From a virus: 64,000 nucleotides of DNA. The notes under the pieces are model-generated. The model was not told the origin of the DNA. It was given only the letters and a program-made list of their open reading frames with translations, and made no database searches. Position numbers and translations under genes: made by a program. Of the stretch, positions 23,222 through 30,250 are shown piece by piece (position 1 is the first letter of the stretch; the number at the start of each line of letters is the position of its first letter). The stretch lies in UHGV virus genome UHGV-0149956; one strand, written 5' to 3'.

Positions 23222-24949
23222 TTACTCAGAGTCACCGGCATCAATCGTGTCGCCGCTTATGAAGTTAAGCCCGCCTTTTTTGGCCATTGTCAGCGTTACA
23301 CGAGTGAAGTAATCAGCGCCGTTGCGTGGGTGCATATCGTTGATAGCCGAACCCCACAGCGTGGTACGGTTGACCAGCGCCGGAGTGGTCGGATGCTGGA
23401 ACGGGATGGCCGGGACAGCATCACCAGTCACGAAGCCTGCTTTACCCGGATTTTCATCACGGACGTAGCACAGCACATCCATCGAGCTGAACTGAATGTT
23501 CTCTGTCGTTAAGTTCTTACAAATACCAGCAGGTACTTCGTACACTTTCACGTTACCGAACAGGGTACCGATGTAGTGAACATACGGAGTCTGGATATAG
23601 TCTTCGGCTGGCTGGAAGAAATCCTTCGGCAACTGTTTGAAGAAAGATGCTGCATCAGCACCAGCAAACATCCCCATCGCACCAGAAGATTTAACGCGCT
23701 CAATAATGTCGCGATATACAGTCTGGAATTTGCCACGAATGATGGTTGCCCATACATCAAAGGACTGGTTAACCGGCAGAGCGATGTCAAAGGTGTCGGT
23801 CGCAAGAGTGCGCCAGATCATGATGCGAAGACGCAGCATATCCTGTTCATGAGACAGGTATTCCTTCAGGGTGCGGAACTGTAGGGACCCCAGGTCCAGA
23901 CCAAATTCACGCTGTGCTTCATACGCCGCCTGTACCGTGTGCTCAGCCGCGATAACGAACTGACTTGGGAACAGGGTGTATTTCTTCATTTCGTGGTTGA
24001 TCAGCGGGATCAGCTCAGGAGCGGCTTCAATATTGATTTCCGTCTCAATTGCGATCTCAGTGCCTTTATCCGGCGCTTTGGAGAACGACAGGGCAATCTG
24101 ACCAATGTTGTAGTTCAGAGAGCAGGTAACAGTGATTTGCTCACCAGCAGCATTAGTAAACGAGTGAAGTAGGCTGCCGGAACCGTTATCAACAACAGAC
24201 TTAATACGGTTAACGTAGATGTTAGTGCGACCTTTTCGGATTGGTACATTCTGGCCTTCGAAGTCTTCCATCTTGAAGGTTGCGGTTTTGCTGGTGCCAT
24301 CGGAGCTTGCCACCAGCACATAGCGGCGACGTAACTGGCTGTACACACCGACGGATTGCATGTCCAGAACATCACCAGCAGCATAAGAACCAAAAGATGA
24401 ACCTGCCACGTTAAAGACTTCATAGATGTCGGACTGGTCACGCGTAACCGGAATGAAGGTACACGCATCAGCGGTAGCTGCCCCCAACTGAACAGGCAGG
24501 ATCATCGCGAGGAATAAAGGCAGACGCATAACACCGTCAGAAACGCTCATCATCTCTGCTGCGACGGATTCCAGCATCGCTTTATTAGTGGCATCCATGC
24601 TATTGCGGGTGGACTCAATCAGGCAGTTTTCCAGCGTCTGGTGGCAGGAGGCCAGAATTTCCGGACGCGGCATAGATTTATGTGCTGCGGCGTAGTCAGC
24701 CAGTGCACTTGCCCACGCTGTAGCGATTTGAGCGGTGGCATTATCAGAGATACCCGCAAAAACTGGGTCTTTACGTGCAGCTTCAAGGATAGATGCGGCA
24801 CGCGCGGCATCATCTTTAATGAATTGGTTATCAGTACCGAACTGCGCAGTGCTTGCCCAGCCAAGCACAGCTTTAGAGCGTTTTGCGATATCTGCAATAC
24901 GATTCTGGTATTCGCGTAAGTTACTCAATTTACTCTTCCTTAAACACAA
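23222..24949 (-). CDS. Major virion structural protein (possible major head protein); start probably internal
   Basis: 575-aa ORF at head of structural operon. Confidence 0.35.
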   Translation of the reverse strand: MCLRKSKLSNLREYQNRIADIAKRSKAVLGWASTAQFGTDNQFIKDDAARAASILEAARKDPVFAGISDNATAQIATAWASALADYAAAHKSMPRPEILASCHQTLENCLIESTRNSMDATNKAMLESVAAEMMSVSDGVMRLPLFLAMILPVQLGAATADACTFIPVTRDQSDIYEVFNVAGSSFGSYAAGDVLDMQSVGVYSQLRRRYVLVASSDGTSKTATFKMEDFEGQNVPIRKGRTNIYVNRIKSVVDNGSGSLLHSFTNAAGEQITVTCSLNYNIGQIALSFSKAPDKGTEIAIETEINIEAAPELIPLINHEMKKYTLFPSQFVIAAEHTVQAAYEAQREFGLDLGSLQFRTLKEYLSHEQDMLRLRIMIWRTLATDTFDIALPVNQSFDVWATIIRGKFQTVYRDIIERVKSSGAMGMFAGADAASFFKQLPKDFFQPAEDYIQTPYVHYIGTLFGNVKVYEVPAGICKNLTTENIQFSSMDVLCYVRDENPGKAGFVTGDAVPAIPFQHPTTPALVNRTTLWGSAINDMHPRNGADYFTRVTLTMAKKGGLNFISGDTIDAGDSE

Positions 24950-25065
24950 GGCACTTGTGTGAATCCCTTTTCGGAAGAGATTTTATTGAAAGTCACTTGT
25001 TGACTTTCTCGTGACAAGCAATTTTTTTATTTTTTCGGGAGGAGGGGAGGAAGGTAAAATCCAAG

Positions 25066-25148
25066 GTGAAATCGTGGCGATTTCACCTTGAAATTTTAGA
25101 GTAATTTACTTTAAAAACAGTCAGTTAATAGTGAAATTTGAATGGCGA
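25066..25148. promoter_or_regulatory. parS-like partition site
   Basis: GTGAAATCGTGGCGATTTCAC and GTGAAATTTGAATGGCGA: ATTTCAC heptamers plus TCGCCA hexamers immediately downstream of parB. Confidence 0.65.
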
Positions 25149-25152
25149 AAGT

Positions 25153-26154
25153 TTAAGGCTTCGGCTTTTTATCGAGGCTCTTTCTAAGGATATGCCCAAT
25201 CATCCTGTCGAGTTCTTCCTGTAACTCTTTTGAGAGTCGATTAAACTCATAAGAAAATGCACGGCCTTTCACGCGCTTCCTTGCAAAGCGATCCTTGTCC
25301 TCAAATTTCCATAATTCAGTAACTACGGACTTATCTTTAGAACCTTTATCCGTGAGTAGTGAGGCTTCCTTTGTTATCAAGCGCAGGATTTTATTTTTAA
25401 CTTCATCTTCGGCCATTTCTTCAATGGATAAGATGTCGTTTATTTCCGGGGATATGTTTTGAATAAGCTGATCAAACTCTAAATTCTTGTTCCCCATTTC
25501 GTCGCCAACAGCACAAAGCGTTTTGTAGTCCGAAAAGGTTAATTCCGACTGCACAGGGAAAAGGGCGACTAATTCTTCCGGAGCACTCGCTGCCTGGAGA
25601 GCACGCGTGACCTTCGCCTGAGACAGCCCTTCTTTGGCTGCAATATCCTTCTGACTCATCCCATCATTTTTCATTCGCATCAAACGCAGACCTATTTCTC
25701 GAATGCTGTGCTGCAATGCTGTCTGAACGTCTTTCGCTAAATTTTGCGCTTCCTGAACGCTGATCTCCTGGTCCGTGACTAAAACCCGCAACCCTACGTT
25801 CTCTAAGATGGCAGAAGCTCGACGCCGGGAACCATCCAAAATTTCAATTTTCCCTGTAGCCCGTCTGACACCTATTGCAGGGTAAAATTGCTGATGCTTA
25901 ATAGTGCTTCGGATACTTTTTAATGATTTTGGCGTAAGAGATGCCTGGTCACGCCCGTTGTTATGCTGATCAACAAAGGTATCGCTTTCTACCTGGTTCG
26001 GAGGTATTACCTCTTCAATAAATGTGGCCTGGCGACCAGTTGATAACTTGAATACCTGCTCGACTCGATCGCCAGAGGCTGAAGAACTATCAAATCCGCT
26101 TAATATTGAAGGATTAAGGGTTCGCCCAATTGTTGGTCTGTTTTTCTTTGACAT
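25153..26154 (-). CDS. parB: Partition protein ParB
   Basis: 333 aa; ParB-like motif GSRRRASAILENVGLRVLV and HTH region; follows parA. Confidence 0.8.
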   Translation of the reverse strand: MSKKNRPTIGRTLNPSILSGFDSSSASGDRVEQVFKLSTGRQATFIEEVIPPNQVESDTFVDQHNNGRDQASLTPKSLKSIRSTIKHQQFYPAIGVRRATGKIEILDGSRRRASAILENVGLRVLVTDQEISVQEAQNLAKDVQTALQHSIREIGLRLMRMKNDGMSQKDIAAKEGLSQAKVTRALQAASAPEELVALFPVQSELTFSDYKTLCAVGDEMGNKNLEFDQLIQNISPEINDILSIEEMAEDEVKNKILRLITKEASLLTDKGSKDKSVVTELWKFEDKDRFARKRVKGRAFSYEFNRLSKELQEELDRMIGHILRKSLDKKPKP

Positions 26155-26170
26155 GGGGGTTTCTTACTCC

Positions 26171-27367
26171 TCAGTTAGATCTGATAAATTCAATACGGTC
26201 AAAAACTGCTTTAGCAAAATCTTCCGCAGCAATTCGCGCGTTCTTCAATGCATCAGCACTACCAACATACGTTGCCGGGTTAGCTGAAATAACAGTGTCA
26301 AAAGACTCGCCGCAGCGTTCAAAACCGTCAAGGCGAGGGAGGACAACATCAAGCATATCCCCACCGAACACTTCTTTAGCCAGGCTATGGCAATACTTAT
26401 GGTCTGCCTTGTTACTCAACTTGGACATAAATCCAATGTTAGTTGCAAGCTGACACTCACAGCCTTCATCCGAAATGAGTTTCACCAACTCAGGAAGGCG
26501 GGCAACGTATTTAAGCGATGAGTGGAAATCAACCGTTGCAGGCGGCAGAGGTGTAAACAGTATATTGGCCGAGGCCAAAGCATTTTTCAGGAAGGCGTCA
26601 AGGTGAGGACCACTATCAACGAGGATAAAGTCATAATCGCTCTTCAGCTTATCAATCACATTTTCTTTCAGGACTGCATGGATGTTCTGACCCGGTAGAT
26701 GCTCATTGCACAGCTCTCTCCAATCGGATGCAATAAAGGCATCGTCAATCGACGCAGGCATAACGTCAACCCCAGGTACAACAGAAGGAACAATAAACTC
26801 CTCTAACAGCTCTTCACGGCTTACATTCTGCAACATAGCCTGTGCAGATGTTGCGTTTACGATACCAATAGAGTGTTTATGGCTTAAAAACATCGTTGCT
26901 GAAGATTGCGGATCAAGGTCAATAACCAGAATCCTTAAATCTTCCATCAGAAGATGAGGATGAGCACGCATTGCATGCGCCAGAGAAACCGTCGATACAG
27001 TTTTTGACACACCGCCTTTAAGATTGGAGATGAAAATCACATACGCTTCGCTGTAGCGATCCCGGTATTTTGGCACTCCGCGATGTTCATATATGTCAAT
27101 GATGTTCTGAATTGACATCGCATATTTCATTGAAGAGCCAGCAGGGCGTTTATCGAAAACATAACCCTTTTCTTCCATTTCACTTACGGCATAGTCAACG
27201 TTCGCACGAGTCAGTAGAGGCAATTTTGCCAGTGCCGCTTTCGCATAGACCTGGTAAAACTCGTTCGCGTGTAGCTCATCCTTTTGCAACTGTACTTGTT
27301 CAGTCAGAACATTGAGCATTCTATTTGCTCTTTGAGCAACCTTGTGAAGCTGGCTGGAATCACTCAT
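26171..27367 (-). CDS. parA: Partition ATPase ParA (type Ia, long N-terminal extension)
   Basis: 398 aa; deviant Walker A NLKGGVSKT; ILVIDLDPQ motif. Confidence 0.85.
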   Translation of the reverse strand: MSDSSQLHKVAQRANRMLNVLTEQVQLQKDELHANEFYQVYAKAALAKLPLLTRANVDYAVSEMEEKGYVFDKRPAGSSMKYAMSIQNIIDIYEHRGVPKYRDRYSEAYVIFISNLKGGVSKTVSTVSLAHAMRAHPHLLMEDLRILVIDLDPQSSATMFLSHKHSIGIVNATSAQAMLQNVSREELLEEFIVPSVVPGVDVMPASIDDAFIASDWRELCNEHLPGQNIHAVLKENVIDKLKSDYDFILVDSGPHLDAFLKNALASANILFTPLPPATVDFHSSLKYVARLPELVKLISDEGCECQLATNIGFMSKLSNKADHKYCHSLAKEVFGGDMLDVVLPRLDGFERCGESFDTVISANPATYVGSADALKNARIAAEDFAKAVFDRIEFIRSN

Positions 27368-27535
27368 CGAAAGTCATCCTTTATGCTGTATTTTTGAATT
27401 TAATTAAAAATGCTGCATAAAATAATAATGTATGCGTAGATGCTTGTACATAGCATTCTCTGCATGTTTGGTTCATTTTGCACGATTGAGAGTTACAAGG
27501 AGGGCACAAAAAAGCCCCGTTCAGGGGCATCAGTG

Positions 27536-28345
27536 TTATTTGCTAAGAGCAGCGAATAATCGTTCGAAATCGATAGTATCTATAGCACGCGTAAGCGCCG
27601 GAAGTTCAGCCTCAAAGTACCCGTGTCGATCGTAAAAGAAGGGACCGAAGAGCGAGGCATGTTGGATTCTACTTCGCCCCAGCCCGGACACACAGTTAAG
27701 CCCATTACCGGCTAAAAGGCTAAAAAACTTCTCTGGATTATCGTGGTAAAGCTGGGAATCAATGGTGGCGGTTAACTCTTCCATAGGGAAGCACACCCGC
27801 CCTGTATCCCAGGGATATTTAGTCCGAAGCATAAACATTGCTTTCAGCAATTCACATTGAGCGCGGATCGCGTCCGGTTCATAGCCAGATATGGAGACAT
27901 AAGCCACGTCCCTCATTCCTGCGTCATCTTTGAAAGTCACGATAGAAGTAACATCCAGCTCTTTTTCGAAAGAGCAAGCAGCATCTACTGGACGCTGAAG
28001 TAAATCATTCGACTTAATGCGCTCGAGAATCCCTCCCCACATATCATTTAGATATTCGATATGAGCCAAAACCTTATCAAGACACTCTCGTGTAAACCAT
28101 TCAGTATGCCCGCCACCGACGCTTTTCTCCCACGGCGCATTCCAGGGGAAAAAGGTTGCGTGTAAAGCCCGCTCAAGATTAACCATTGCCAAACGCGTAC
28201 CACGATAGACCCGTGAAAGCGCAAAATCGGGACTCACTTGTAGTCCTTTAAACCGTGCCAATGGACCACATGAAATGCCGATTTTAAAAGTATCTCCGTT
28301 CTCTGGCACCAGAACGTAGAGGTAGTGTTGTTTCTCTTCTTGCAT
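27536..28345 (-). CDS. T5orf172/GIY-YIG-like domain protein (cargo gene between iterons and parA)
   Basis: N-terminus YLYVLVPENGDTFKIGISCGPLARFKGLQ fits the T5orf172 motif. Confidence 0.4.
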   Translation of the reverse strand: MQEEKQHYLYVLVPENGDTFKIGISCGPLARFKGLQVSPDFALSRVYRGTRLAMVNLERALHATFFPWNAPWEKSVGGGHTEWFTRECLDKVLAHIEYLNDMWGGILERIKSNDLLQRPVDAACSFEKELDVTSIVTFKDDAGMRDVAYVSISGYEPDAIRAQCELLKAMFMLRTKYPWDTGRVCFPMEELTATIDSQLYHDNPEKFFSLLAGNGLNCVSGLGRSRIQHASLFGPFFYDRHGYFEAELPALTRAIDTIDFERLFAALSK

Positions 28346-28380
28346 ATCAATACCACTGCTTGATGAGAACCGCGCAAATG

Positions 28381-28518
28381 TTGACTATGCGCGAAGGTTA
28401 ATGTGAATAGTTGACTATGCGCGATGTGACTACAGTCAAAAGTTGACTGTAGTCGATTTAACTCCACCAAAGATCGACTATGTAAGATATTGTCGGGAGA
28501 AACGTTGACTATACGCGA
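28381..28518. repeat. Iteron array downstream of repA (incA-like copy-control locus)
   Basis: TTGACTATGCGCGA at 28381 and 28411, TTGACTGTAGTCGA at 28443, TTGACTATACGCGA at 28505, plus inverted GTGACTACAGTCAA. Confidence 0.7.
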
Positions 28519-28637
28519 TGAAATGCCCCTAAAAGCCATCTCAATAGCGACTTGCAGAATATTGACGCCAGCAAAAATCCACCAGCGTCAACGAATGTCG
28601 CCTATAGTCAACTTCTCGCTATCGCATATAGTCAATA

Positions 28638-29522
28638 TTATGGATTGCGCTTATGGATCTGGAAGCCGATTTTCCTGCCGTTTTTTATCTCTGAAAATTT
28701 AAGATATTCAATAGCTTCCAAATCTTTCATGGCTTTTCTGATAACGCTATTTTGCACGCTAACGGATGATTTGAGATTAAGCCTCGCTCTAAGGCGCTCA
28801 ATGCTGACAGGTGCCGGGTTGGCGGGTAGAGCCTCAAAGAATGTATACAGTACCTTGGCCGTCTCTTTGCGCCCTAGTTTATCCAGCATCTTCAGCTTCA
28901 GGATTCGCTTATAGTCAACATAGTAAAGTTCAGATAGCTGTTTCTGCGGCTGGATCTCGATAACATCAAGCTCGGTATTCAGGCTGCTATATGCCAACAA
29001 GTTGACGTTAATGTTATTGAGATGACCTTTTGCCGCCGGGAAGCGGAATTTGACAACTGTCTGCTGAATGCGTGTCAGAGAGTCATCAATACTTTTACGG
29101 AACGCCTTTGAAAGGCGCTTACGTGGATAGCCGCATCGATCGGCAAACTCGGAGAATGGCAGGGTGATTATGCCGTCATCATCAGGTGCGTAGTCAAACA
29201 ACGCGGAAGTTATGCCCACCCACACCTTAAAATCAGTATCCATATCCAGGCGTGGACCATGAATTTCAATTCCCTCATAGCCTTCCTGCTCAACAATTTT
29301 GAGGCTTGATAGTTCTTCAGTTGCGTTCGTTGTGTTTGTTGTAACTGACGATCCGCGACGTAGCGCCACATTGGTAGATTTTAAGGTTGGCACAAACACA
29401 CCTAAGCGCAACAAAGCGATGGGTTGTATAGTGCTGTTGTTATTGGGCTTCAGGCTGTGGATTTCTCCTGTATTTCCTGCAACTTCTTCAACGCTAAGGA
29501 AGCCTTTACTTTCTTCCGGCAT
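28638..29522 (-). CDS. repA: Iteron-binding replication initiator RepA (RepFIB/P1 RepA family)
   Basis: Motifs NNNSTIQPIALLRLGVFVPTLKS, ITGPRLDMDTDFKVWVGI, AKVLYTFFEALP; ATG at 29522 with GGAG 9 nt upstream. Confidence 0.8.
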   Translation of the reverse strand: MPEESKGFLSVEEVAGNTGEIHSLKPNNNSTIQPIALLRLGVFVPTLKSTNVALRRGSSVTTNTTNATEELSSLKIVEQEGYEGIEIHGPRLDMDTDFKVWVGITSALFDYAPDDDGIITLPFSEFADRCGYPRKRLSKAFRKSIDDSLTRIQQTVVKFRFPAAKGHLNNINVNLLAYSSLNTELDVIEIQPQKQLSELYYVDYKRILKLKMLDKLGRKETAKVLYTFFEALPANPAPVSIERLRARLNLKSSVSVQNSVIRKAMKDLEAIEYLKFSEIKNGRKIGFQIHKRNP

Positions 29523-29603
29523 CACGGTTTCTCCATGTGTGGCGCGGCCTGACGTCAATTTGGATGGCTGTTATCAACAGCTGTGAATATTCAGACTCTA
29601 AAA

Positions 29604-29814
29604 TCGCTTACAGTCAATGTTTCTGTCGCGTATAGTCAACAATAAATCGCGTGCAGTCAACAATAAATCGTGCACAGTCAACATAAAATCGCGTATAGTC
29701 AATGTTGATCCCATTTCAGGCCAGTAATGACGCGGCTTACAGCGATCCGGGATCTTCTTTGGATCTTCCTAGGTTCTCTTTAGGATCTGTTTATTGGATC
29801 TATGCTGTGGATAA
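29604..29814. other. Plasmid origin region: iterons, GATC cluster and DnaA box (oriR/incC-like)
   Basis: Five iterons CGCGTATAGTCAA-like at 21-22 bp spacing (29604-29701), five GATC within 29744-29800, DnaA box TGTGGATAA at 29806-29814. Confidence 0.7.
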
Positions 29815-29857: not shown

Positions 29858-30250
29858 TTATTCTACGCTTTCGATAAGAAGACCATGTTCATAACATTTA
29901 AGCTCATCGCCTTCATACAGGAATTGGTATCCAACACCACCATCTTCATGGACATTAGGGAATAACTCATAACTCACTGAAGAGCAAATCACACCAATGC
30001 AGCGATCAACTCCTTCTCGTTCTTCAGTGCTGAAAAAATCCTCTTCGGTAAGAACATGAGTACATTGCTCATCAGCATAGGTCGGAAATACATGCTCAAT
30101 GCAATCCGGGTGTTTTAAACCAAGCTGATCGGCAAGCTCGAAAGCACGACGGTATTGTTCAGATCCTGGCTTGCCAACAGTGATTTGCTCAATTTTGTAG
30201 ATTGAAGTCGCTTTGTTGATAGTTTGCTTTACTGTTACTTTATCAGACAT
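29858..30250 (-). CDS. Hypothetical acidic protein
   Basis: 130-aa ORF downstream of origin; hairpin 29824-29850 after its 3' end. Confidence 0.4.
   Translation of the reverse strand: MSDKVTVKQTINKATSIYKIEQITVGKPGSEQYRRAFELADQLGLKHPDCIEHVFPTYADEQCTHVLTEEDFFSTEEREGVDRCIGVICSSVSYELFPNVHEDGGVGYQFLYEGDELKCYEHGLLIESVE

What the first reader, a model, noticed from the sequence alone, without database searches (positions are those of the whole stretch)
27536..28345. Cargo gene with T5orf172/GIY-YIG-like motif inserted between the replicon and the partition operon
In the backbone arrangement I recall, the downstream iteron array is followed closely by parA. Here a 269-aa ORF with an N-terminal YLYVL...FKIGIS motif occupies about 1 kb between them. 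A nuclease-like gene in a plasmid-maintenance hotspot could be an anti-phage or anti-plasmid function, or a selfish homing-type gene.
Basis: inference. Interest (0 to 1): 0.6.

Follow-up and report, generated by a model that had tools for sequence, protein, structure and literature searches.

The report
Nuclease gene riding a plasmid replicon
The ORF is a real, intact nuclease-family (T5orf172/GIY-YIG) gene, but it is a fixed part of the commonest natural replication cassette of P1-like phage-plasmids rather than a stray cargo insert, and it is probably a site-specific nuclease used in conflicts between related replicons, though its function has never been tested.

Summary
Window 28345..27536 (-) encodes a 269-aa protein between the downstream iterons of repA and the parA promoter. 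Pfam T5orf172 scores 26.9 bits against a cutoff of 20. The fold matches SLX1 and phage T5orf172 proteins.

The "inserted cargo" reading is only partly right.
- The window is a P1-like phage-plasmid with the p0111-type replicon.
- Relative to P1, a single 2,250-bp block (27470-29719) is replaced: origin iterons, repA, downstream iterons and this gene.
- The gene is on about 400 PLSDB plasmids and in 412 of 5,426 complete E. coli genomes.
- Billions of proteins yielded only three divergent relatives (27-44% identity). All sit at the same repA-parA junction of other P1-like elements, one beside an IncY-like RepA.
- Nuclease-motif residues are invariant. pN/pS is 0.26, against 0.00-0.07 for the neighbouring genes, and broken alleles exist.
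- No defence-system hit.

Best reading (confidence 0.42): a replicon-linked endonuclease resembling homing endonucleases or ICP1 Odn, acting on rival P1-type replicons. Its activity and target are untested. It is a new member of a known kind; interest is moderate.

The parts
27536..28345 (-). 269-aa ORF encoding a T5orf172/GIY-YIG family protein. The stop codon is at 27536-27538.
   Evidence: Pfam PF10544, 26.9 bits against GA 20; PHROG 2876, full length; RefSeq WP_001154687.1, 'GIY-YIG nuclease family protein'.
28031..28333 (-). N-terminal nuclease-type domain, aa about 5-105. Motifs: YLYVL, FKIGIS, R31, E58/H62, TEWF (E82).
27962..28030 (-). Linker, aa about 106-128. Confidence is low for aa 115-127.
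   Evidence: pLDDT is below 50 for residues 115-127.
27539..27961 (-). C-terminal domain, aa about 129-269. It is a sequence orphan, acidic (pI about 5.1), with a predicted winged-helix-containing alpha/beta fold.
27506..27528 (-). Intrinsic-terminator-like hairpin (GCCCC-TGAAC-GGGGC followed by TTTTTTG). It starts 8 nt after the stop codon and lies about 60 bp upstream of the Ppar -35.
   Evidence: An equivalent hairpin follows the L005 orthologue.
28376..28518 (+). Five incA-like iterons (core GTTGACTATGCGCGA, about 31-bp spacing), inverted relative to the origin iterons. The last one ends about 34 bp upstream of the ORF's ATG.
   Evidence: families D5/D6; the last iteron is likewise the final element before the start codon in L003, L004 and L005.
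28596..28636 (+). Two iterons in origin orientation immediately after the repA stop codon.
   Evidence: family D2.
28638..29522 (-). repA, p0111-type Rep3-family initiator, 294 aa. It is 42% identical to P1 RepA.
29601..29710 (+). Five origin (incC-like) iterons at 21-22-bp spacing.
   Evidence: families D1/D3.
27470..29719 (.). The block replaced relative to phage P1: 2,250 bp here against 1,491 bp in P1. It comprises the origin iterons, repA, the downstream iterons, the nuclease gene and its terminator. The flanks are 99.4% (par side) and 94.6% (oriR DnaA/GATC side) identical to P1.
   Evidence: the L003/L004 pair shows the same kind of block (L003 6831-9019 against L004 5656-7944).
27368..27469 (-). 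Ppar promoter and ParA operator region, homologous to P1.
   Evidence: P1 annotation; coordinates mapped; TGTACA-17-TATTAT at 27450..27422.
25153..27367 (-). parA (27367..26171) and parB (26154..25153). Both are 100% identical in protein to P1 ParA and ParB.

Best explanation
The ORF encodes a two-domain protein. The N-terminal domain is a T5orf172 (GIY-YIG superfamily) nuclease domain. After a flexible linker comes a fast-evolving C-terminal targeting domain with a winged-helix fold resembling Rep WH1.

The gene is a built-in component of the replicon cassette of P1-like phage-plasmids (origin iterons, repA, incA-like iterons, nuclease gene). It is inherited and recombined together with that cassette.

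The most likely function is that of a site-specific endonuclease of the homing-endonuclease or ICP1-Odn kind. When two related P1-type elements meet in one cell, it would cut the rival's DNA in or near its replicon. The rival would then be eliminated, or its replicon cassette would be converted to the nuclease-carrying one by recombinational repair. Its own cassette would be immune because its sequence differs.

Expression is probably low and coupled to repA, through read-through across the iterons.

Shown here: gene, domain family, fold, cassette linkage, distribution and the pattern of selection. Inferred: nuclease activity, the target, and the homing or exclusion outcome.
For: Nuclease domain
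- Pfam T5orf172 scores above its gathering cutoff.
- It also matches phage T5orf172 homing-endonuclease-type proteins, including ICP1 ORF88 (= Gp88/Odn, per PMC8263062).
- Motif residues, including the Arg and Glu that are catalytic in Odn (PMC8263062), are invariant in orthologues down to 25-27% identity.

Cassette linkage
- Relative to P1, the block 27470-29719 is replaced as one piece, with the gene at its par-side end.
- L003 and L004 have near-identical backbones (gp23 99%, ParA 100%, ParB 98%) but differ in RepA (40%) and in this gene (29%). Their swapped block has the same limits.
- All four family types found among 5.8 billion and 1.84 billion proteins lie between repA/iterons and parA of P1-like elements.
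- No homologue accompanies Rep3/RepFIB replicons outside P1-like plasmids in PLSDB.

Presence/absence polymorphism
- P1 (IncY) lacks the gene and carries no remnant of it.
- An IncY-like element, L004 (RepA 83% identical to P1 RepA), has one.

Evolutionary signature of a conflict or selfish gene
- Between the window and L003, this protein is 44% identical while RepA is 84% and ParA 89%.
- The C-domain diverges fastest: 32% identity to L003, falling to almost none against L004 and L005.
- pN/pS is 0.26, against 0.02, 0.00 and 0.07 for repA, parA and parB.
- Nonsense, frameshift and chimeric alleles occur.

Precedents and relatives
- T5orf172 genes mark the boundaries of genetic exchange between phages, and Odn-type nucleases fuse T5orf172 to an initiator DNA-binding domain (PMC10448857; PMC8263062).
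- A close N-domain relative, P0017, carries a Pfam Rep3_N WH1 domain (29.9 bits against GA 22.4).
- The best non-nuclease structural matches of the C-domain are Rep WH1 domains, found by two methods.
Against: - No nuclease activity, target or phenotype is known. No paper in the library discusses the gene.
- The C-domain has no detectable sequence similarity to any RepA (hhalign probability 0.2%) or to any Pfam family.
- The whole protein, and especially the C-domain, is acidic (pI 5.4 and 5.1 in all four types), whereas RepA has pI 9.3-9.5. That is unusual for a sequence-specific DNA binder and fits protein binding better.
- The position at the block's edge is partly forced. Recombination is expected in the conserved Ppar and oriR flanks whatever lies between them, so the position is not independent evidence that the nuclease drives exchange.
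- The gene is essentially fixed in p0111-type elements, so no empty p0111 site was found to serve as a homing target.
- The alleles used for pN/pS were chosen for amino-acid divergence, which inflates the ratio for this gene.
Confidence: 0.42

Rival explanations
1. A RepA-associated accessory factor. The acidic, WH1-like C-domain does not read DNA. Instead it docks onto a RepA protein, its own or a rival's, through the WH1 dimerisation surface. The protein would then modulate initiation, handcuffing or copy number, or be carried to iterons by RepA. The T5orf172 domain would act as a nickase or merely as a DNA-contact module.
For: - The C-domain is acidic in all four orthologue types, while RepA is strongly basic.
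- The best structural matches are Rep WH1 domains, including dimeric forms (RepE dimer 2z9o, pPS10 RepA dimeric N-domain 1hkq).
- The gene always abuts the incA-like iterons and lacks a consensus promoter of its own, which suggests co-expression with repA.
- It co-varies with RepA type in the L003/L004 swap.
- T5orf172 proteins can be domesticated as non-cutting regulators (CapR) or as nickases (NixI) (PMC10448857; titles).
Against: - P1 and about 360 E. coli IncY plasmids replicate and are maintained without any such gene.
- Alleles with premature stops persist on otherwise intact plasmids, so it is not a required replication factor.
- It evolves about ten times less constrained than repA.
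- L004 and L005 nuclease proteins resemble each other (39%; N-domain 60%) although their RepAs are as different as any pair (42%).
- The WH1 resemblance itself is tentative.
Confidence: 0.2
2. A purely selfish or decaying free-standing homing endonuclease gene. It hitch-hiked to fixation with the successful p0111 cassette and now has little or no activity or benefit.
For: - Constraint is relaxed relative to the neighbouring genes.
- Recurrent nonsense, frameshift and chimeric alleles occur.
- The gene is absent from P1 at no apparent cost.
- The ribosome-binding sites look weak by eye (sequences), and no consensus promoter was found.
Against: - pN/pS of 0.26 still indicates purifying selection in both domains.
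- Motif residues are invariant across orthologues at 25-27% identity, and the slot is occupied in four deeply diverged lineages. That argues for long-term function.
Confidence: 0.2
3. An anti-phage defence (abortive-infection type) nuclease that the prophage-plasmid carries to protect its host.
For: - Phage-plasmids often carry defence genes (abstract of bioRxiv 10.1101/2024.06.18.599647).
- Nucleases are common defence effectors (general knowledge).
- The gene evolves fast.
Against: - No hit to any of 5,027 PADLOC models.
- It is a single gene with no partner sensor.
- The family is confined to one slot of one plasmid family, rather than moving between defence islands.
- It is tightly linked to the replicon cassette.
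Confidence: 0.08

Closest known systems
Free-standing T5orf172 (GIY-YIG superfamily) homing-endonuclease-type genes of phages (Barth, Dunham & Seed 2023, PMC10448857)
   Same: - The same nuclease domain family by Pfam and by fold.
- Two-part architecture: a nuclease domain plus a variable second domain.
- It sits next to an essential module and at the edge of a recombined block.
- Presence/absence polymorphism among close relatives, and occasional inactivated alleles.
   Different: - It lacks the CapR, DUF723 or DUF4397 zinc-finger DNA-binding domains found in 87% of those genes (PMC10448857). The C-domain here is an acidic sequence orphan.
- It resides in the plasmid-maintenance region of a temperate phage-plasmid rather than among lytic-phage genes.
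- It is fixed in its lineage, and no empty target allele is known.
ICP1 Odn (Gp88), the origin-directed nuclease, and related coliphage T5orf172+RepA_N proteins (PMC8263062; PMC10448857)
   Same: - A T5orf172 nuclease domain that retains the catalytic-type Arg and Glu. ICP1 ORF88 (= Gp88/Odn, per PMC8263062) is among the structural hits.
- A second domain whose best structural matches are replication-initiator winged-helix domains.
- An association with an iteron replicon, and modular co-variation with the initiator type.
   Different: - Odn's binding domain is 42% identical to its target's RepA_N. Here no sequence similarity to any RepA is detectable.
- The domain order is reversed: the nuclease is N-terminal here.
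- The similarity is to Rep3 WH1, not RepA_N, and is only tentative.
- The gene is encoded beside its own replicon rather than in a predator of the replicon.
- The C-domain is acidic.
Canonical P1 IncY replicon (oriR/incC - repA - incA - parAB)
   Same: - The same overall organisation and the same flanks. ParA and ParB are 100% identical, and the Ppar and oriR DnaA/GATC regions are conserved.
- RepA is a homologue (42% identity), with upstream iterons and inverted downstream iterons.
   Different: P1 has about 190 bp of non-coding DNA where this element has the 810-bp nuclease gene and its terminator. No remnant of the gene is present in P1.
PHROG 2876 / RefSeq 'GIY-YIG nuclease family protein' (e.g. 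WP_001154687.1; RCS47 gp090; JL22 'gp57')
   Same: It is a full-length member: E 1.4e-194 over 269 of 269 positions, and 97.8-100% identity to the copies in phages SJ46, RCS47 and JL22 and in P1-like plasmids.
   Different: None. This is the same gene. The family has no assigned function, and the JL22 paper calls it an unknown protein.

Membership tests
T5orf172 domain family (Pfam PF10544, GIY-YIG clan) | Match to the family HMM above the curated gathering score | tested here: met
   26.9 bits against a cutoff of 20, aa 8-85. The three orthologues score 25.1-27.8 bits.
T5orf172 domain family (Pfam PF10544, GIY-YIG clan) | GIY-YIG-type alpha/beta fold | tested here: met
T5orf172 domain family (Pfam PF10544, GIY-YIG clan) | Conserved motif residues: Tyr strand, K-I-G strand, Arg, and the metal-binding Glu in the EWF motif | tested here: met
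   Y8, Y10, K21, G23, R31, E58, H62 and E82-W83-F84 are invariant in four orthologues at 25-44% identity. Equating them with catalytic residues is by motif position, which is inference.
T5orf172 domain family (Pfam PF10544, GIY-YIG clan) | Endonuclease activity | not testable with these tools
   This needs purified protein and DNA substrates.
Free-standing homing endonuclease gene (HEG) | A nuclease domain joined to a sequence-specific DNA-binding domain | tested here: inconclusive
   A linker and a winged-helix-containing C-domain are predicted. However, that domain is acidic (pI about 5.1) and has no recognised DNA-binding family hit.
Free-standing homing endonuclease gene (HEG) | Presence/absence polymorphism at one locus among otherwise similar genomes | tested here: met
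   P1 lacks the gene and has no remnant. The window, L003, L004 and L005 carry it at the same junction.
Free-standing homing endonuclease gene (HEG) | Cuts the HEG-less allele near the insertion point, with the host allele immune, followed by co-conversion of flanking markers | not testable with these tools
   The only indirect pattern is that the gene lies at the edge of the swapped replicon block in two independent comparisons. That position is partly forced by the conserved flanks.
Odn-type origin-directed nuclease (T5orf172 + initiator DNA-binding domain) | The second domain is homologous in sequence to a replication initiator's DNA-binding domain | tested here: not met
   hhalign of the C-domain profile against five P1-family RepAs gave probability 0.2%. 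Against the Rep3_N-bearing P0017 cluster it gave probability 0.06%. There is no Pfam hit even at E 10.
Odn-type origin-directed nuclease (T5orf172 + initiator DNA-binding domain) | The second domain has an initiator-like winged-helix fold | tested here: inconclusive
Odn-type origin-directed nuclease (T5orf172 + initiator DNA-binding domain) | Iteron-dependent cleavage of a rival origin | not testable with these tools
   This needs nuclease assays on IncY, p0111 and other P1-type origins.
Known anti-phage defence systems (PADLOC-DB v2) | Match to a defence-protein model | tested here: not met
   0 families at E up to 1.
p0111-type replicon cassette of P1-like phage-plasmids | Constant co-occurrence and adjacency with p0111 repA and its iterons | tested here: met
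   391 PLSDB records cover at least 80% of the repA+gene query, and 391 cover at least 80% of the gene query. The order is identical in all loci examined. The JL22 paper also reports repA' and 'gp57' replacing repA together.

The most novel reading that the evidence does not exclude
The gene is a replicon-linked weapon of plasmid incompatibility. Its nuclease is steered by a Rep-WH1 mimic domain, either directly onto the iterons of competing P1-type replicons or indirectly by heterodimerising with the rival's RepA. Cutting there destroys the rival or converts its replicon cassette. This would explain why the p0111 cassette with the nuclease has spread to rival the canonical IncY cassette in natural P1-like elements that share the same partition and immunity systems.
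Probability: 0.2. Interest if true: 0.75.

Novelty: new member of a known kind. Interest (0 to 1): 0.45.

Why it matters
P1-like phage-plasmids are widespread carriers of resistance genes such as mcr-1 and blaCTX-M. Their two replicon types, IncY and p0111, are used for typing. This analysis shows that the p0111 cassette always carries an uncharacterised nuclease-family gene, present in about 7.6% of complete E. coli genomes. The slot between incA and par is also occupied by divergent alleles in other P1-like lineages.

If the protein cuts rival replicons, it would be a plasmid-encoded counterpart of the phage Odn and homing-endonuclease systems. It would also offer a concrete mechanism for replicon replacement and exclusion among co-infecting phage-plasmids. 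That is directly testable with P1 genetics.

If it is only a hitch-hiking selfish gene, the finding is ordinary. It would still correct the idea that the gene is variable cargo.

Tried and rejected
- Defence-system membership: PADLOC and NCBIfam gave nothing.
- A remnant of the gene in P1's incA-Ppar spacer: blastx with lenient settings found only noise. P1 is therefore not a simple deletion derivative.
- Sequence similarity of the C-domain to RepA, to the C-domains of 100 other T5orf172 proteins, to the Rep3_N-bearing P0017 cluster (a 7.9-bit local match is not significant), to Pfam and to PDB sequences. All were negative.
- The first AF2 run, with an alignment of only three sequences (two of them 99% identical), gave pLDDT 50 and was discarded. 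The afdb50 fold library was unavailable.
- A search for more divergent alleles in PLSDB using P0009 and P0011 returned only cross-hits to the window-type N-domain.
- The context of broader N-domain relatives is mobile elements in general, not replicons specifically: P0012 in a phage, P0015 on a mobilisable plasmid, P0018 on a short contig.
- No consensus sigma-70 promoter of the gene's own was found in any of the four loci. Its transcription source remains inferred.
- Literature searches for T5orf172 or GIY-YIG together with P1-like or phage-plasmid terms found no paper on this gene.

Full report
**1. The observation**

The window encodes a 269-aa ORF on the minus strand from the ATG at 28345 to the stop codon at 27536-27538. 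On that strand the order of features is as follows.

| Feature | Coordinates |
|---|---|
| upfA | 30250..29858 |
| Five origin iterons | 29601-29710 |
| repA | 29522..28638 |
| Two iterons, same orientation | 28596-28636 |
| Five iterons, inverted, about 31-bp spacing | 28376-28518 |
| The ORF | 28345..27536 |
| G+C hairpin with T-run | 27528..27514 |
| par promoter | about 27422-27451 |
| parA | 27367..26171 |
| parB | 26154..25153 |

In phage P1 the last incA iteron and Ppar are separated by about 190 bp of non-coding DNA. The description is therefore accurate.

The ORF is a real gene:
- It matches PHROG 2876 end to end (E 1.4e-194).
- RefSeq annotates it.
- It is conserved in 12 phage records and about 400 plasmids.
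- It has syntenic orthologues at 27-44% identity.
- Its pN/pS is well below 1.

**2. What the element is**

The window is a P1-like phage-plasmid of the SJ46/RCS47/JL22 group (99% identity over 25000-29700). blastn against P1 shows 99.4% identity up to window 27469, and 94.6% identity again from 29720 onward. Between those points, a 2,250-bp block replaces 1,491 bp of P1.

The left limit lies just beyond the Ppar -35. The right limit lies inside oriR, between the incC iterons and the GATC/DnaA part (P1 annotation).

The replaced block is thus exactly the specificity part of the replicon plus the extra gene. It holds the origin iterons, RepA (42% identical to P1 RepA) and the downstream iterons.

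The JL22 paper describes the same replacement. [quoted passage not shown]

**3. Distribution**

- The repA+gene query is covered at 80% or more in 391 PLSDB records. The gene alone is covered at 80% or more in 391 of the 401 records with a hit, all at 90% identity or higher.
- In complete E. coli genomes the gene is present in 412 of 5,426, almost always on plasmids.
- The P1 IncY replicon is present in 359 of 5,426.
- Published surveys also find p0111 at least as common as IncY among P1-like elements, at 63 against 52 of 119 (PMC10879196).

The gene is therefore not variable cargo. It is a constant feature of the commonest natural P1-type replicon cassette.

**4. The family**

A word-indexed search of 5.8 billion proteins and an exhaustive HMMER search of 1.84 billion representatives found only three other full-length types.

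| Protein | Identity to window protein |
|---|---|
| P0004 | 44% |
| P0009 | 27% |
| P0011 | 25-28% (MAFFT; global alignment) |

All three lie between repA with its iterons and parA of other P1-like elements (L003, L004, L005). In each locus the last iteron is the final recognisable element before the start codon.

L003 and L004 have almost identical backbones: gp23 99%, ParA 100% and ParB 98% identical. They differ in RepA (40%) and in this protein (29%). Their divergent block (L003 6831-9019, L004 5656-7944) has the same limits as the block separating the window from P1.

L004's RepA is 83% identical to P1 RepA, so even an IncY-like cassette can carry such a gene. P1 itself has no remnant of one.

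No homologue, not even of the N-domain, accompanies Rep3/RepFIB replicons outside P1-like plasmids in PLSDB.

**5. The protein: N-terminal domain**

Residues 8-85 match Pfam T5orf172 above the gathering score, as do the three orthologues.

An AF2 model built from the four-type alignment has mean pLDDT 71.9. An earlier alignment of three sequences, two of them 99% identical, gave pLDDT 50 and was discarded.

Y8, Y10, K21, G23, R31, E58, H62 and E82-W83-F84 are invariant across the four types. The Arg and Glu are the residues retained in Odn, where E180A abolishes cleavage (PMC8263062).

**6. The protein: C-terminal domain**

After a low-confidence linker (aa 115-127) comes a domain spanning aa about 129-269. 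It has no sequence relatives beyond the four syntenic proteins, and no hit in Pfam or among PDB sequences.

Its predicted secondary structure contains a canonical winged-helix core: H157-173, E183-187, H188-194, H198-211, E215-220, E227-231.

Many other winged-helix proteins follow. Foldseek independently puts 6h24_A first (E 0.04, probability 0.82). RctB, a series of RepE54 entries and pPS10 RepA come next, but nothing reaches E 1e-3.

I treat the Rep-WH1-like fold as tentative. A close N-domain relative, P0017, does carry a Pfam-detectable Rep3_N WH1 domain (29.9 bits against a cutoff of 22.4). It is followed by a Rep3_C ORF. Fusion of this T5orf172 clade with initiator domains therefore does occur.

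Two facts count against a simple Odn-like reading:
- Profile comparison of the C-domain with five P1-family RepAs is negative (probability 0.2%).
- The C-domain is acidic in all four types (pI about 5.1, net charge -4 to -8), whereas the RepAs have pI 9.3-9.5. Acidic C-domains are not rare among relatives, at 27 of 90. The two relatives with recognisable DNA-binding domains are basic.

**7. Selection**

Between the window and L003, RepA is 84% identical and ParA 89%, but this protein is only 44% identical (N-domain 63%, C-domain 32%).

pN/pS was computed among six close alleles.

| Gene | pN/pS |
|---|---|
| This gene | 0.26 (N-domain 0.24, C-domain 0.27) |
| repA | 0.02 |
| parA | 0.00 |
| parB | 0.07 |

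The alleles were picked for amino-acid divergence, so the contrast is somewhat inflated.

Disrupted copies exist:
- L009 has two premature stops.
- Database clusters P0003 and P0008 are the two halves of a frameshifted gene.
- P0005 and P0007 are chimeras.

The gene is functional but dispensable, and it evolves like a conflict or selfish gene.

**8. Expression**

No consensus sigma-70 promoter lies between repA and the ATG in any of the four loci. By eye the ribosome-binding sites look weak (sequences).

The window gene and the L005 gene are each followed by an intrinsic-terminator-like hairpin ahead of Ppar.

I infer low expression, by read-through from the RepA-autoregulated promoter or from weak promoters within the iteron array, and insulation from the par operon.

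**9. Interpretation**

The identity (a T5orf172/GIY-YIG-family gene) and the anatomy (a component of the replicon cassette) are well supported.

The closest precedents are the free-standing T5orf172 genes. They sit beside essential genes and at the boundaries of exchanged blocks in phages. Some have been domesticated as origin-directed nucleases by fusion to initiator DNA-binding domains (PMC10448857; PMC8263062).

The best-supported mechanism is therefore a site-specific endonuclease acting on related P1-type elements that lack the same cassette. The outcome would be exclusion of the rival or homing-like conversion of its replicon. Confidence is about 0.42.

Such rivals are otherwise near-identical in par, for example ParA and ParB are 100% identical between this element and P1. 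Partition incompatibility and direct competition would follow from that shared par system, but this step is inference and was not tested here.

A caveat applies to the position of the gene at the block edge. Recombination is expected in the conserved flanks regardless of what lies between them, so that position is partly forced.

The rival readings are:
- a RepA-binding accessory or mimic protein, favoured by the acidic WH1-like domain (0.20);
- a merely selfish or decaying homing gene (0.20);
- anti-phage defence, with no PADLOC hit (0.08).

**10. Novelty and verdict**

The gene is annotated generically in RefSeq and belongs to a PHROG of unknown function. No paper in the searched library discusses it.

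As far as I could find, the following have not been described:
- the gene's strict linkage to the replicon cassette;
- its confinement to the repA-parA slot of P1-like elements;
- its pattern of divergence;
- the possible Rep-WH1-like domain.

It is best filed as a new member of a known kind (T5orf172 homing or Odn-type nuclease genes) with an unusual home. Interest is moderate at 0.45. It is common, uncharacterised and readily testable, but its function has not been shown.

Noticed in passing
L013:104-1771: A close N-domain relative (P0017, 338 aa) fuses T5orf172 to a Pfam Rep3_N WH1 domain. It is followed directly by a 191-aa ORF with Rep3_C, on a 2-kb metagenomic contig. This could be a T5orf172-tagged Rep3 initiator, or an Odn-like nuclease with both winged-helix domains that is split or frameshifted.
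   Followed up: partly
L018:2130-3329 (MF510496.1, pMCR_SCKP-LL83): An IS1294 (IS91-family) element is inserted between the nuclease gene's terminator and the par promoter of an mcr-1 P1-like plasmid from Klebsiella. L009 also carries an IS91-family transposase just upstream of repA.
   Followed up: no
L009:2601-3410 (NZ_CP062896.1): This allele of the nuclease gene has two premature stop codons (L93*, W103*) on an otherwise intact p0111-type plasmid. Database clusters P0003 and P0008 (frameshift halves) and P0005 and P0007 (chimeras) show further disrupted alleles.
   Followed up: partly
window 28555-28590: A roughly 30-bp imperfect palindrome (TTGACGCCAG-CAAAAATCCA-CCAGCGTCAA) lies between the two iterons that follow repA and the five inverted iterons. 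Its arms resemble the TTGAC half of the iteron. Only one arm is recognisable in L003.
   Followed up: no
window 28903-28919: An iteron-like copy (ATTCGCTTATAGTCAAC, 82% identical to the reference iteron) lies inside the repA coding sequence.
   Followed up: no
L001, L007-L011, L018 (PLSDB typing lines): MOB-suite, as reported by PLSDB, types these p0111-type P1-like plasmids as 'IncHI1B'. This conflicts with the p0111 type that PMC9603915 assigns to this repA in JL22, and I take it to be a mislabel. RAST-style phage records call the same RepA 'RepFIB'.
   Followed up: no
L006 (NZ_JBWGHW010000004.1) and L005: Replicon and partition modules assort independently. An IncY repA sits next to a ParA/ParB pair of 401/321 aa with no nuclease gene (L006). 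A third RepA type, with a nuclease gene, sits next to a pair of the same sizes (L005). By recall these sizes correspond to the P7 type; this was not compared with P7 here.
   Followed up: partly
window 23222-24949: The P1 major capsid gene 23 is 100% identical in protein to P1, so the phage backbone is essentially canonical P1 outside the swapped cassette. Seven of the 421 matches to the nuclease gene in E. coli are chromosomal, which suggests integrated P1-like elements.
   Followed up: no
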